Shown here piece after piece: positions 379-5,937 of a stretch of DNA of 9,556 nt. The translations under genes were made by a program, and so were the position numbers. The DNA is taken from assembly GCA_964510585.1 (NCBI GenBank), contig CAZECW010000104.1:1-9556 (forward strand), given 5' to 3'. Position 1 is the first letter of the stretch; each line of letters begins with the position of its first letter. Source of the stretch: an uncultured archaeon (lineage in GTDB: Archaea > Asgardarchaeota > Jordiarchaeia > Jordiarchaeales > Jordiarchaeaceae). The notes beneath the pieces were generated by a model that had not been told where the DNA came from, ran no database searches, and saw only the letters and a list, made by a program, of their open reading frames with translations.

Positions 379-2016
379 ATGAAGTATGTTGTTGACACCA
401 GTATACTATTAGGTTCGACTCTTTCTAAAGAGATAGAAGAGGGTAGTCTGAAGGATCAAAAAGATATAGAGATAATTATTCCCCAGACAGTTCTGGCGGA
501 GATTGAGCATCAAGCCAACAGCTCCAAAACTGGTGGGATGGTAGGACTGGAGGAGCTTCGAAAAATTCGTAGACTTCATAATCAGGGGAGAATAGTTCTT
601 ACCATTACTGGCGAGAGACCAAGCCTCCAAGAAATAGCCCAAGCTAACAGTGGGGCGCTTGACGAACTTGTGCGCAAAGAAGCTAGAAAAAACGGTGCAA
701 CCCTTATGACCAGCGATTATGTTCAAGCAGTCATATCCGAAGCTGAAGGTATAGACGTGATGTTCATACAGAGGGAACAGAGGGAACCAGAACTGAAAAT
801 ACAGGACTTCTTTGCACCAGACTCACTTTCAGTACATCTGAAAGACGGCGTACCCCCCCAGACGAAAAGGGGAAAACCTGGAAACTGGAGACTAGAGAAC
901 ATAAGCGATGAGCCGATGACTCTGCAGCAACTCCAGAAACTCGCATCCTCAATAATTGAAACTGCCGGGGTAGACAAGGACTGCTTCATTGAAATTGACG
1001 AAGAGGGAGCTACAGTGGTTCAACTCCACGAGTACCGAATAGCTATAACCACTCCTCCCCTATCTGACAGAATGGAAATTACCGCGGTAAGACCCTTATT
1101 ATCAGTAAGTCTAGACGACTACCATCTTTCAGAAAAACTAAAAGAAAGATTAAAAGAGAAGGCTGAAGGTATATTAGTGGCGGGTAGACCCGGAGCAGGA
1201 AAAAGCACTTTTGCCAGCGCCCTCGCGGAATTCTACCAAAAACAGAACAAAATTGTAAAAACACTAGAAAAACCCAGAGACCTCCAAGTGGGACCCGAAA
1301 TTACACAGTACACAGCACTCAGAGGAGACATGGAAAAAACCGCAGATATACTTCTTCTAGTAAGGCCAGACTACGTAATATATGACGAGCTACGTAAAAC
1401 TAAGGATTTTCAAATCTTCAGCGACTTGAGATTCGCAGGCGTGGGCTTGGTTGGTGTGGTGCACGCTTCAAGAGCCATAGACGCCATAGAGCGTTTCATA
1501 GGGAGAGTGGAACTAGGACTAATAAGCAGAGTTATAGACACAGTAATCTTCATAGAAGACGGAGAAGTAGACCAAGTACTCTCACTCAGACTAACAGTAA
1601 AAGTTCCCTCAGGAATGACAGAGTCAGACCTAGCCCGCCCAGTAATAGAAGTACTAGACTTTGAAACCGGACAACTACAATATGAAATATATACATACGG
1701 CGAACAAACCGTGGTAATACAAATAGGCGACGAAACAAGAAGGGCAAAAAGAAAAAAACAAAAAAGGAGAGAAAACTTTGAACCGCAATCCAAAACAGTA
1801 ATACCTGTGGAAGCCGAATTAAACCGAAAACACGTAGTTTTAACAGTCCCACCAGAATACGCAAGAACCTACCTACAATTCTATGTAGACGACGAACCCT
1901 TATTCACATCAAAAACCAGCAGAGACGGACAAATCCGCATAAGAAAATCTACCCTCTATGGAAAAAAACTAACAGAACACATTAAAAACAGAAGAAACAT
2001 ATACGCAAAAGAATAA
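379..2016 (+). CDS. PIN-domain + VirB11/PilT-like P-loop ATPase (archaeal PINA / PINc-VapC family ATPase)
   Basis: N-terminal PIN motifs YVVDTS, GALDELVR and MTSD. Walker A GRPGAGKST, Walker B YVIYDE, GVVHA and LTVKVPSGM...DLARPVIEV are typical of the family. GGAG lies at 366-369 upstream. Confidence 0.92.
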   Translation: MKYVVDTSILLGSTLSKEIEEGSLKDQKDIEIIIPQTVLAEIEHQANSSKTGGMVGLEELRKIRRLHNQGRIVLTITGERPSLQEIAQANSGALDELVRKEARKNGATLMTSDYVQAVISEAEGIDVMFIQREQREPELKIQDFFAPDSLSVHLKDGVPPQTKRGKPGNWRLENISDEPMTLQQLQKLASSIIETAGVDKDCFIEIDEEGATVVQLHEYRIAITTPPLSDRMEITAVRPLLSVSLDDYHLSEKLKERLKEKAEGILVAGRPGAGKSTFASALAEFYQKQNKIVKTLEKPRDLQVGPEITQYTALRGDMEKTADILLLVRPDYVIYDELRKTKDFQIFSDLRFAGVGLVGVVHASRAIDAIERFIGRVELGLISRVIDTVIFIEDGEVDQVLSLRLTVKVPSGMTESDLARPVIEVLDFETGQLQYEIYTYGEQTVVIQIGDETRRAKRKKQKRRENFEPQSKTVIPVEAELNRKHVVLTVPPEYARTYLQFYVDDEPLFTSKTSRDGQIRIRKSTLYGKKLTEHIKNRRNIYAKE

Positions 2017-2075
2017 AAACACCAAAAACAAAAATACAACCAACAACAAAAATTCAACAAAAAACTACCAAAAAA
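2017..2075 (-). terminator. A/C low-complexity tract, read as U/G-rich on the minus strand; possible terminator for leftward (rpiA read-through) transcripts
   Basis: Several A4-A6 runs, which are oligo-U on the minus strand. Oligo-U termination is established in archaea. The tract may instead only reflect the local strand skew. Confidence 0.35.
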
Positions 2076-2077
2076 GT

Positions 2078-3677: not shown

Positions 3678-3685
3678 TTTTTTTT
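3678..3685 (+). terminator. Oligo-T terminator after tRNA-Leu
   Basis: T8 run starting 7 nt after the CCA. Confidence 0.65.
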
Positions 3686-3831
3686 GGCTCTTCTGGGATT
3701 GTAAACAGATTGGCTTTGAGGTTTATAGTTCCTAAAAAAATAAAAGCCCTTACTTTTTATATTATTGTTGTAAACAAAGTATAGTATGACTTGTTTTTGT
3801 TGAATTAAAATGTTTAGGAGAGGTGGTTAGA

Positions 3832-5937
3832 ATGGTTAGGGAGACTACGGTTTCCAAGATTAGGAAGCGTGATGGGCGTATAGTGGATTTTGAGCCGGTT
3901 AAGATTACTAATGCTATAGGTAAGGCTATTGTGGCTGTTGGAGGGAAAGATGGGGAAATTGCTGAGAAGTTGTCGAGTCAGGTTGTTGCTGTTATTGAGG
4001 AGAGTTTTAGGGATAGGATTCCCCATGTTGAGGATGTGCAGGATATTGTGGAGAGGGTGTTGATTAAGAATGGTTTTTCGGATGTTGCTAAGGCATACAT
4101 ATTGTATCGTCAGAAGAGGGCTGAGATTAGAGAGGCTAAGAGGTTTTTGGGGGTTAGTGATGATTTAAAACTGTCTTTGAATGCTGTTCAGGTTTTGGAG
4201 AAGAGGTATCTTTTGAAGGATGAGCAGGGTAAGGTGGTTGAGAGTCCAGCGGGACTTTTTCGTAGGGTGGCTAGGGTTATTGCTTCTGTGGATAAGTTGT
4301 ATGATAAAAATGCGGATACGGAAACCATTGGTGATGCGTTTTATGGAATGATGTCTAGGCTGGAGTTTCTCCCTAATTCGCCCACATTAATGAATGCGGG
4401 AACAGACATTGGTCAGCTTTCTGCGTGTTTTGTCCTTCCTGTAGGGGACTCTATAGAGGAGATTTTTGATGCTTTGAAATATATGGCGTTGATTCATAAA
4501 TCTGGTGGGGGTACTGGTTTCTCTTTTTCTAGGTTAAGGCCTAATGGGGACATAGTTGGGTCTACTAAGGGGGTTGCCAGTGGGCCTGTTTCTTTTATGA
4601 GGATTTTTGATGTGGCTACAGATGTGATTAAGCAGGGGGGACGTAGAAGGGGCGCCAATATGGGGATACTTCGCGTGGATCATCCTGACATTATAGAGTT
4701 TATTTCGGCAAAGGAGAAGGAGGGGATGTTTAATAATTTTAACATTTCTGTGGGGGTTACTGATGCTTTTATGGAAGCAGTTAGAAATGACGATTTTTAT
4801 GAGCTTATTAATCCTAGAACTGGAAGGCCGGTTAAGAAGGTTAGGGCGGCTGGTGTTTTTAATGCAATAGTGGCTTCGGCCTGGAGAACTGGGGATCCGG
4901 GTCTAATTTTTCTTGATGAGATAAACCGCCACAATCCTACACCTCATGTTGGGCAGATTGAGAGCACTAACCCTTGTGGGGAAGTTCCCCTGTTGCCGTA
5001 TGAATCTTGTAATCTTGGTTCAATTAATTTGTCCAAGATGGTTGAGAATGGGGATATTGATTGGGAGAAGTTGAGAAGTGTCGTTCGATTAGCTGTTCAT
5101 TTTCTAGATAATGTGATTGATGCCAATGTTTATCCTCTTCCGCAGGTTGAGAAGGCTACTAAGGCAAATAGAAAAATTGGGTTGGGGGTTATGGGTTTTG
5201 CAGAAATGCTCATTCAGCTTAATATTCCGTATGATTCAAATGAAGCGCTTGGTGTTGCGGAAAAGGTTATGTCTTTTATAAGTAAGGAAGCGTTAAAGAG
5301 ATCAGAGGAACTGGCTTTGGAGAGGGGAGTTTTTCCAAACTTTGAGGGCAGTATATGGAAAGAAAGGGGGTATAAAGCATTACGTAATGCTACTTTAACA
5401 TCAATTGCTCCTACTGGATCCTTAAGTATTATTGCAGGTACGTCGAGTGGCATAGAGCCTCTGTTCGCGATTTCGTTCGTTAGAAATGTTATTGGAACCC
5501 AGCTCTTTGAAACGAATCTTCTCTTTGAGAAGATTGCTAAGGATCGCGGATTCTACAGTACGGAGTTGATGACTGAGATTGCTAGAAAAGGCTCAATCCA
5601 AGGAATAGAGGGAATACCGGAAGATGTTCGTAGAATATTTGTTACAGCTCTGGACATAGCTCCCGAATGGCATGTGAGAATGCAAGCGGCCTTTCAGAAA
5701 CACGTAGATAATGCGGTGTCCAAAACTGTTAATCTTCCACAAGATGCTACATTGGATGATGTGTACCAGATATACTGGCTTGCTTACGAGTTGAAATGTA
5801 AGGGCATTACCGTATTTAGGTATGGAAGCAGGAGAAAACAGGTTTTAGTTACAACGCCTCCTGAAGAAAAATATTTGAAGGTAGAGTCGGAGTATGCGGG
5901 AGGCTCCCCTTCAACTATGTGTCCACTATGCTACTAG
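3832..5937 (+). CDS. nrdJ: Adenosylcobalamin-dependent (class II) ribonucleotide reductase with N-terminal ATP cone
   Basis: ATP cone KIRKRDGRIVDF, NSPTLMNAG, LSACFV, GGGTG, QGGRRRGANM, TNPCGE (thiyl radical Cys), CNLGSINL, IAPTGS and C-terminal CPLC. No small-subunit gene is adjacent. The ATG at 3832 follows GAGGTG, so the track's GTG at 3823 lies within the RBS. No intein. Confidence 0.93.
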   Translation: MVRETTVSKIRKRDGRIVDFEPVKITNAIGKAIVAVGGKDGEIAEKLSSQVVAVIEESFRDRIPHVEDVQDIVERVLIKNGFSDVAKAYILYRQKRAEIREAKRFLGVSDDLKLSLNAVQVLEKRYLLKDEQGKVVESPAGLFRRVARVIASVDKLYDKNADTETIGDAFYGMMSRLEFLPNSPTLMNAGTDIGQLSACFVLPVGDSIEEIFDALKYMALIHKSGGGTGFSFSRLRPNGDIVGSTKGVASGPVSFMRIFDVATDVIKQGGRRRGANMGILRVDHPDIIEFISAKEKEGMFNNFNISVGVTDAFMEAVRNDDFYELINPRTGRPVKKVRAAGVFNAIVASAWRTGDPGLIFLDEINRHNPTPHVGQIESTNPCGEVPLLPYESCNLGSINLSKMVENGDIDWEKLRSVVRLAVHFLDNVIDANVYPLPQVEKATKANRKIGLGVMGFAEMLIQLNIPYDSNEALGVAEKVMSFISKEALKRSEELALERGVFPNFEGSIWKERGYKALRNATLTSIAPTGSLSIIAGTSSGIEPLFAISFVRNVIGTQLFETNLLFEKIAKDRGFYSTELMTEIARKGSIQGIEGIPEDVRRIFVTALDIAPEWHVRMQAAFQKHVDNAVSKTVNLPQDATLDDVYQIYWLAYELKCKGITVFRYGSRRKQVLVTTPPEEKYLKVESEYAGGSPSTMCPLCY

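What the first reader, a model, noticed from the sequence alone, without database searches (positions are those of the whole stretch)
1741..4080. Sawtooth G+T / A+C strand skew that overrides gene orientation and flips near tRNA loci
Seen (hand counts of third codon positions): the PINA 3' part (1741-1980, + strand) has 70/80 ending A/C, while the nrdJ 5' part (3841-4080, also + strand) has 73/80 ending G/T, falling to 24/40 at 5641-5760. polB has 26/34 G/T in its first codons but 21/29 A/C in its last. The leftmost ORF has 54/67 A/C on the minus strand. So the + strand is G/T-rich at 1-500, drifts to A/C-rich by 2000-3250, flips at about 3400-3700, drifts back by about 7000-8500, and becomes T-rich again after about 8700. 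The divergent junction at 203/379 shows no flip. Inference: a mutational asymmetry (e.g. deamination of the exposed strand) spreading from strong promoters or other fixed sites about 5 kb apart, rather than normal replication skew or codon selection.
Basis: partly seen in the sequence, partly recalled or inferred. Interest (0 to 1): 0.6.

Follow-up and report, generated by a model that had tools for sequence, protein, structure and literature searches.

The report
Local strand-skew flips in Asgard archaeon
In this hot-spring Asgard archaeon, fixed sites, including most tRNA genes, are flanked by about 4 kb in which the DNA strand running away from the site keeps gaining G and T, a strong strand-specific mutation footprint that is not the normal replication skew and that I found described in no paper I could search.

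Summary
In detail: all six hand counts are exact. The window (Freyarchaeia/Jordarchaeia, Asgard) has three A/C-to-G/T flips, each at an intron-bearing tRNA locus. The profile recurs in five congeners, so it is not an assembly artefact. Genome-wide, sharp flips go one way (26 up, 0 down at J>0.5) and decay over about 4 kb; 16 of 17 tRNA loci step upward, but most strong flips sit inside conserved genes. There is no 5-kb period, and the 'no flip at 203/379' argument rests on a recent insertion. The skew comes almost wholly from transitions (C>T up 2-3x, A>G 4-6x, reverse rates about halved) with little neighbour dependence. In a complete congener, a canonical ORB beside cdc6 marks oriC, and its weak long-range skew has the opposite sign. 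Best reading (0.4): G:T wobble errors fixed on DNA resynthesised outward from these sites. The window's own PolB3 carries the equivalent of the KOD exonuclease-minus change N210D and is an untested candidate. What defines the sites is unknown. This scan noted the pattern before on other pieces of this genome and in one other archaeon.

The parts
1..287 (-). End of a multicopy mobile-like element holding the 'leftmost ORF' (3-203); recent insertion, not part of the native sawtooth
   Evidence: Bases 143-287 recur at ends of contigs C73, C165, C80; several copies in G004, a different gene upstream of PINA in relatives; no Pfam hit
379..2016 (+). PINA-type PIN-ATPase; third-position G/T falls from 0.65 to 0.10 towards flip 1
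2017..2077 (+). Almost pure A/C non-coding tract at the left edge of flip 1 (G+T 0.10)
2078..2388 (+). tRNA-Arg(CCT) with two short introns and an inserted element; site of flip 1 (J about 0.2-0.29)
   Evidence: Hand-spliced sequence called tRNA-Arg(cct) by ARAGORN
2128..2310 (.). MITE-like hairpin element with terminal inverted repeats and an 11-bp target duplication (2117-2127, 2311-2321), inside the tRNA-Arg anticodon arm
2395..3081 (-). rpiA; + strand third-position G/T falls from 0.49 to 0.19 towards flip 2
3265..3399 (-). tRNA-Thr(GGT) with introns; left member of the tRNA pair at flip 2
   Evidence: Hand-spliced, ARAGORN tRNA-Thr(ggt)
3506..3672 (+). tRNA-Leu(TAA) with three introns; right member at flip 2 (codon-only step 0.73, among the strongest in the genome)
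3832..5937 (+). ATP-cone ribonucleotide reductase (nrdJ type); G/T falls from 0.91 to 0.55 over 2.1 kb
6029..8383 (-). PolB3-type family B polymerase; + strand G/T falls from 0.68 to about 0.2-0.3 towards flip 3
7664..7666 (-). PolB3 codon 240 = Asp in place of the ExoII Asn (aligns with Pfu/KOD N210; N210D is a known exonuclease-deficient change)
   Evidence: PMC9738464
7349..7351 (-). PolB3 codon 345 = Glu in place of the ExoIII Asp (G000, G001, G003, G004; Asp kept in G002, G005)
8568..8711 (+). tRNA-Met(CAT) with two introns; site of flip 3 (J 0.31)
8823..8920 (-). tRNA with TGT anticodon (Thr) and a D-loop insertion
   Evidence: Rfam RF00005 alignment, E=1.9e-10; ARAGORN misreads it as Phe

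Best explanation
A local mutational footprint. At fixed sites (tRNA genes, many intergenic regions, a few dozen strong sites in conserved genes) DNA is repeatedly resynthesised outward on both sides, as after a break with 5' resection or after ectopic priming. The new strand runs 5' to 3' away from the site. G:T wobble misinsertions put T opposite G and G opposite T on it and are not corrected, so it drifts to G/T and its partner to A/C; variable tract lengths give the decay over about 4 kb. Shown: pattern, polarity, decay, two-sided symmetry, conservation, a spectrum dominated by transitions, independence from fork direction. Inferred: that the G/T strand is the newly made one, that breaks or primers start the tracts, and that PolB3 makes them.
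For: C>T 0.87 to 2.77 and A>G 0.59 to 3.85 on the G/T strand, T>C 0.62 to 0.26, G>A 0.67 to 0.36 (2.3x and 4.3x with all six taxa); G>T stays 0.33 versus 0.34. C/T and A/G axes respond about equally (slopes 4.4-4.5, 3.9-4.1) with no strong neighbour preference. G:T mismatches dominate replication errors and give C>T and A>G on the nascent strand (PMC6159521). Flips are sharp to a few codons, equal on both sides in gene orientation (-0.29, +0.28) and fade by about 4 kb. After removing the uniform replichore offset, strong tracts are balanced for fork direction (27 versus 29). NucS present, MutS and Y-family polymerase not found in the genus genomes searched, one of them complete. PolB3 has the N210D-equivalent residue in all six genus genomes. 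The left flank of the real oriC in G005 shows the same tract shape (-0.25 fading over about 4 kb; one case). A decaying polymerase footprint of similar length is known for Pol I on ColE1 (PMC3167613).
Against: Sequence data cannot tell errors on a new strand from deamination on an exposed strand. No break-making enzyme or site motif was found. The PolB3 link is weak: the sister family has an even more decayed exonuclease domain yet lacks the cdc48 flip, and one family with intact motifs shows gene-end gradients; kin are not independent. Reverse rates fall, which pure extra mutagenesis explains only if tracts from neighbouring sites overlap. The oriC flank is also the cdc6 promoter side, and its right flank was not examined.
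Confidence: 0.4

Rival explanations
1. Deamination of a strand left single-stranded: each site is unwound or stalls synthesis so that the outward-running strand is exposed for a few kb and gains C>U and A>hypoxanthine, as on the mitochondrial heavy strand.
For: Gives the same two transitions on one strand and a gradient with distance; runs holding the window are mostly hot-spring samples; raised total transition rate near flips.
Against: A>G rises more than C>T, although adenine deaminates far more slowly than cytosine (own knowledge; mitochondria show this can be offset by repair). No rise of G>T on the G/T strand, which exposed DNA might show. No motif preference that would point to a deaminase.
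Confidence: 0.22
2. Misdirected mismatch repair: NucS/EndoMS cuts G:T mismatches and, near fixed clamp-loading or nick sites, repair replaces the inward-running strand whichever strand is new, so G and T on the outward strand always win.
For: Explains forward rates up and reverse rates down together, transitions only, no neighbour effect; EndoMS is G/T-specific and context-free (PMC6159521); NucS present, MutS not found.
Against: NucS is also present in relatives without the cdc48 flip; a title reports short-patch NucS repair in mycobacteria (paper not read), which fits kb-long tracts poorly; no direct evidence for strand choice.
Confidence: 0.15
3. Transcription-linked mutation from promoters and antisense promoters: the non-template strand is exposed downstream of sense and antisense starts.
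For: Transcription units carry G/T-rich 5' ends (+0.05) and A/C-rich 3' ends (-0.06), absent at tight operon junctions; tRNA loci are sources.
Against: Needs symmetric bidirectional promoters inside conserved motifs of cdc48, uvrA, leuS, rpoA1 and ABC ATPases; coding strands are on average A/C-rich at four-fold sites (G/T 0.447); divergent junctions step least.
Confidence: 0.1
4. Hundreds of ordinary, productive replication origins (skew N-domains at kb scale).
For: Sharp up-steps with near-linear decline are the shape expected around origins; the oriC left flank looks like half a flip.
Against: G005 has one canonical ORB next to cdc6 at 1,639,071 and two replichores switching near it and near its antipode, with the leading strand A/C-rich (-0.032 versus +0.019, p=0.0005): opposite sign and a tenth of the local amplitude. 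No ORB clusters at flips.
Confidence: 0.08
5. Selection on codon use or RNA structure, or an assembly artefact.
For: Flip windows fold slightly better than random skew-matched windows.
Against: Crosses genes of both orientations and non-coding DNA; the folding excess mostly disappears against the same protein resampled; same profile in five independent assemblies up to 54% divergent at four-fold sites; strong flips do not sit in repeats (0 of 26).
Confidence: 0.03

Closest known systems
[quoted passage not shown]
   Same: Intense, correlated GC and TA skews, abrupt switches, strongest at third positions, shift in amino-acid use; error-prone synthesis proposed.
   Different: GRINS are duplicated regions over 500 bp at over 80% identity; these tracts are single-copy, have fixed polarity around a point and decay with distance.
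Pol I mutation footprint on ColE1 plasmids (PMC3167613)
   Same: A polymerase footprint that fades over more than 1.3 kb from a fixed priming point.
   Different: One plasmid origin, one direction, engineered enzyme; here many chromosomal sites, two-sided, natural.
Replication strand skew, archaeal oriC skew (PMC12999951, PMC11291895) and mammalian skew N-domains (own knowledge)
   Same: G+T versus A+C asymmetry with sharp steps and linear decline.
   Different: Scale of 4 kb rather than hundreds of kb; amplitude 0.3-0.45 against 0.03 for the true replichores, and opposite sign to them in G005.
Opposite GC skews at gene 5' and 3' ends in unicellular fungi (PMC3315797)
   Same: Gradient along transcription units that reaches four-fold sites and flanks.
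   Different: Fungi are C-biased at 5' and G-biased at 3'; here the reverse, with T/A moving along with G/C, and with strong intragenic flips.
Mitochondrial heavy-strand deamination gradient (own knowledge)
   Same: C>T and A>G on one strand, graded with distance.
   Different: One-directional from one origin there; mirror-symmetric around many sites here.

Membership tests
GRINS | Duplicated region over 500 bp at over 80% identity | tested here: not met
   Only a 185-bp element of the window has a long second copy in the genome; 0 of 26 strong flips in repeats at 88% or more
GRINS | Intense correlated GC and TA skews (mean absolute over 0.15) | tested here: met
   GC skew +0.6 to -0.47 and AT skew -0.24 to +0.5 in the window; both axes move together; TA skew is near or below 0.15 in parts of nrdJ
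Orc1/Cdc6 replication origin | ORB or mini-ORB cluster next to a cdc6 gene | tested here: not met
   No cdc6 in the window, no ORB cluster at flips; the ORB and cdc6 lie at 1.637-1.639 Mb in G005, about 130 kb from the window's orthologue
Orc1/Cdc6 replication origin | Skew step of the same sign as the chromosome's origin switch | tested here: not met
   Long-range switch at oriC is downward, local flips are upward; within 4 kb left of oriC the skew is flip-like
Orc1/Cdc6 replication origin | Fork initiation shown by marker frequency or nascent-strand mapping | not testable with these tools
   No read-level data obtained
Transcription-associated non-template skew | Skew follows gene orientation, coding strand G/T-rich | tested here: not met
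   Coding strand 0.447 G/T at four-fold sites; 3' ends and intragenic flips run against orientation
Transcription-associated non-template skew | Sources coincide with transcription starts, including antisense | not testable with these tools
   No RNA data could be laid
Fungal gene-end skew (McLean and Tirosh) | Coding strand C-rich at 5', G-rich at 3' | tested here: not met
   G/(G+C) about 0.45-0.47 at 5' ends and 0.34-0.37 at free 3' ends
Enzymatic deaminase footprint (APOBEC/TadA type) | One base type and a strong neighbour motif | tested here: not met
   Both C/T and A/G respond; slopes 3.0-6.0 across all 16 contexts
Break-repair or primed-synthesis footprint | Mirror-symmetric tract with finite length around a fixed point, independent of fork direction | tested here: met
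Break-repair or primed-synthesis footprint | Physical breaks, nicks or primers at the site | not testable with these tools
   Needs break or nascent-end sequencing
Proofreading-deficient family B polymerase | Loss of ExoI/II/III residues | tested here: inconclusive
   ExoI intact, ExoII Asn to Asp, ExoIII Asp to Glu in four of six genomes; activity not measured

The most novel reading that the evidence does not exclude
This Asgard genus primes DNA synthesis at many fixed sites besides its single ORB origin (tRNA genes, unit boundaries, sites encoded within conserved protein motifs), and a naturally proofreading-poor PolB3 makes the first kilobases, so the genome sequence itself is a map of dispersed initiation or programmed break repair in a close relative of eukaryotes.
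Probability: 0.15. Interest if true: 0.9.

Novelty: new variant of a known kind. Interest (0 to 1): 0.63.

Why it matters
A 2026 survey describes archaeal skews as weak and argues that NucS-type repair cannot be strand-specific (PMC12999951). Here a strand-specific process drives free sites to about 90% G/T within a few codons of fixed points, ten times the replichore skew. It gives base-resolved, genus-conserved coordinates where breaks, primers or repair entry can be tested. It also changes proteins (Val 5.7 to 9.3%, Ile 9.1 to 6.4%, Lys 8.7 to 6.0%, Arg 4.0 to 6.4% between A/C and G/T tracts), which can bias phylogenies that use this lineage and mislead skew-based origin calls.

Tried and rejected
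Site motif: RCC-N7-GGY looked 3-fold enriched at flips but was inflated by one tandem repeat and did not replicate in G005 (4 of 219); rejected. CATG is enriched (24 versus 10) but mostly follows from His/Met-rich motifs (18.6 expected from the same proteins) and is barely enriched genome-wide. Palindromic EM and gapped-word scans gave nothing general. Hairpin strength is not clearly above the same-protein null. Repeats and contig ends are not sources. A 5-kb period was not found. An apparent excess of tracts facing the origin (37 versus 21) vanished after removing the uniform replichore offset, so fork-stall or lagging-strand-only models were dropped. I first read 2078-2388 as a minus-strand tRNA; it is on the plus strand. 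The C>G rate estimate rises near flips (0.04 to 0.26) but rests on very few sites (0 of 66 singletons). The ribosomal-protein expression proxy found one gene only, uninformative. Sigma-70 promoter scan equals chance and does not cover archaeal promoters. No RNA holder listed. No cdc6 above cut-off was found in G000 with this family; the assembly is incomplete.
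Full report
Source. The window is contig C104 of a 3.78-Mb, 217-contig assembly. Its PINA protein is 97-98% identical to proteins of Freyarchaeota/Jordarchaeia genomes and 81% to the complete chromosome CP147778.1, which matches handle G005 in length and coordinates. 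Genes: PIN-ATPase 379-2016 (+), rpiA 2395-3081 (-), ribonucleotide reductase 3832-5937 (+), PolB3 6029-8383 (-). Five tRNA genes are mostly hidden by introns; hand-spliced sequences are called Arg(CCT) 2078-2388, Thr(GGT) 3265-3399, Leu(TAA) 3506-3672 and Met(CAT) 8568-8711, and Rfam finds a TGT tRNA at 8826-8920. Multi-intron tRNAs are known in this group (PMC11291895).

Observation. The window has three upward steps, at about 2074, 3400-3750 and 8500, each at a tRNA locus. The same profile is present in G001, G003 and G004 (20-22% divergence at four-fold sites) and in G002 and G005 (53-54%), which excludes assembly joins. Two details fail. Bases 1-287 are the end of a multicopy element; relatives have another gene there and a small upward step. 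The 5-kb spacing is not a genome period.

Genome-wide anatomy. With a signal corrected for each amino acid's codon use, steps over 600 bp are one-sided: 26 up and 0 down above 0.5, 50 and 6 above 0.4. Around strong steps the signal is about -0.3 on the left and +0.3 on the right and fades to zero by about 4 kb; in gene orientation the two sides are equal. Three kinds of source appear. First, tRNA loci: 16 of 17 step up, mean 0.31 against 0.09 for other long intergenic regions, four of them above 0.5. Second, unit boundaries in general: 5' ends are slightly G/T-rich and free 3' ends A/C-rich on the coding strand, with no such effect at tight operon junctions. Third, the majority of the strongest steps, which lie inside genes, sharp to a few codons, at conserved motifs of cdc48, thiolase, rtcB, purD, uvrA, leuS, rpoA1, V-ATPase B and others. 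Among ABC ATPases, all six with Gly in the D-loop motif flip there and none of seven without it, so the site is tied to sequence, yet no general DNA motif survived testing.

Spectrum. From 100 genes aligned across six genomes, the strand that is G/T-rich shows C>T rising from 0.87 to 2.77 and A>G from 0.59 to 3.85 between unskewed and strongly skewed sites, while T>C falls from 0.62 to 0.26 and G>A from 0.67 to 0.36 (2.3-fold and 4.3-fold rises with the outgroups included). The common transversions do not change (G>T 0.33 to 0.34, T>G 0.13 to 0.12, C>A 0.30 to 0.26). Over 830,000 sites the C/T and A/G axes respond almost equally and neighbour effects are small. The total transition rate rises near flips, so this is not a mere re-partition between leading and lagging synthesis; the fall in reverse rates means either overlapping tracts or biased repair. 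All four changes pass through a G:T pair resolved in favour of the outward strand.

Relation to replication. In G005, 40 sampled 20-kb stretches give two replichores with switches near 1.53-1.6 and 3.45 Mb (permutation p below 0.005). Three cdc6 genes lie at 1.637-1.683 Mb and a canonical ORB at 1,639,071; its antipode is 3.43 Mb. With these points fixed the + strand is -0.032 to the right and +0.019 to the left (p=0.0005): the leading strand is weakly A/C-rich, the opposite of what the local flips would mean if they were ordinary origins. The offset is uniform along genes, and once removed the strong tracts are balanced for fork direction. The 4 kb left of oriC nevertheless look like half a flip; this is one case, it is also the cdc6 promoter side, and the right flank was not examined.

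Range. The cdc48 flip is present in all five genus genomes with this orthologue (0.04-0.10 to 0.70-0.92) and absent in the sister family and 18 other Asgard genomes. Gene-end gradients are clear in the genus (0.08-0.10), present in the sister family (0.05-0.16) and perhaps one more family, and near zero to 0.05 in most others, on small samples.

Machinery. NucS/EndoMS is present; MutS and a Y-family polymerase were not found in the order's genomes searched. EndoMS acts on G/T mismatches without neighbour preference, and G/T errors put T and G on the nascent strand (PMC6159521). The window's PolB3 has Asp at the ExoII Asn in all six genus genomes and Glu at the ExoIII Asp in four; the first matches KOD N210D, an exonuclease-deficient mutant (PMC9738464). 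The sister family's PolB3 exonuclease is more decayed still. This makes PolB3 a candidate only; the match with flip strength across families is imperfect.

Mechanism. I put 0.40 on uncorrected wobble errors in DNA resynthesised outward from fixed sites, 0.22 on deamination of an exposed strand, 0.15 on misdirected NucS repair, 0.10 on bidirectional transcription, 0.08 on dispersed ordinary origins and 0.03 on selection or artefact. The first three cannot be separated by sequence alone.

Known systems. It resembles GRINS in composition but fails the duplication criterion; it resembles the ColE1 Pol I footprint in decay; it is opposite in sign to the fungal gene-end skew and to the organism's own replichore skew. 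Ten literature searches found no description for archaea; the library lacks most subscription papers. Earlier notes of this scan report the same pattern on other contigs of this genome and around tRNA genes of another archaeon; they gave me the GRINS, fungal and ABC-motif leads and are not independent support.

Verdict. Real, strong, genus-wide and unexplained; a new variant of strand-asymmetric mutational footprint. Interest 0.63.

Noticed in passing
window 2128-2310: MITE-like element with 27-bp inverted ends and an 11-bp target duplication sits in the anticodon arm of tRNA-Arg(CCT); absent in four relatives, second copy at G000 C167:11192-11376, a 73% copy in G005. It folds as one long hairpin (z -7.5 for the whole gene); whether it is spliced out or breaks the tRNA is unknown.
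   Followed up: partly
window 7664-7666 and 7349-7351: PolB3 has natural ExoII Asn-to-Asp and ExoIII Asp-to-Glu changes; orthologues in the sister family have lost ExoI, II and III residues, suggesting order-wide decay of PolB3 proofreading.
   Followed up: partly
window 1-287: End of a multicopy element with a short unannotated ORF; in G004 a copy sits just downstream of endA, where G000 (C157:26889) has a strong intergenic flip without the element.
   Followed up: partly
window 9410-9556: Dispersed repeat with near-identical copies on at least four other contigs and many in congeners.
   Followed up: no
L221:19071-19090 (G005 1,639,071): Canonical ORB with G-string and mini-ORB-like copies about 1.1 kb upstream of cdc6: likely oriC of the complete Freyarchaeia chromosome, with an A/C-rich leading strand.
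   Followed up: yes
G000 whole assembly: No Orc1/Cdc6 above the family cut-off in this assembly while G005 has three; probably unassembled.
   Followed up: no
L245:7800-8400 (G021), L250:3000-3600 (G022), L241:2400-3600 (G012): Single sharp upward skew steps in three other Asgard families; could be origins or the same kind of site.
   Followed up: no
L029:8316-11153: A bacterial-type UvrA is encoded in this archaeon and carries a flip at its second ATPase motif.
   Followed up: no
G000 whole assembly: GATC, GGCC, CCWGG, GGWCC and CGNNCG words are under-represented (0.57-0.73 of expectation), as from restriction-site avoidance.
   Followed up: partly
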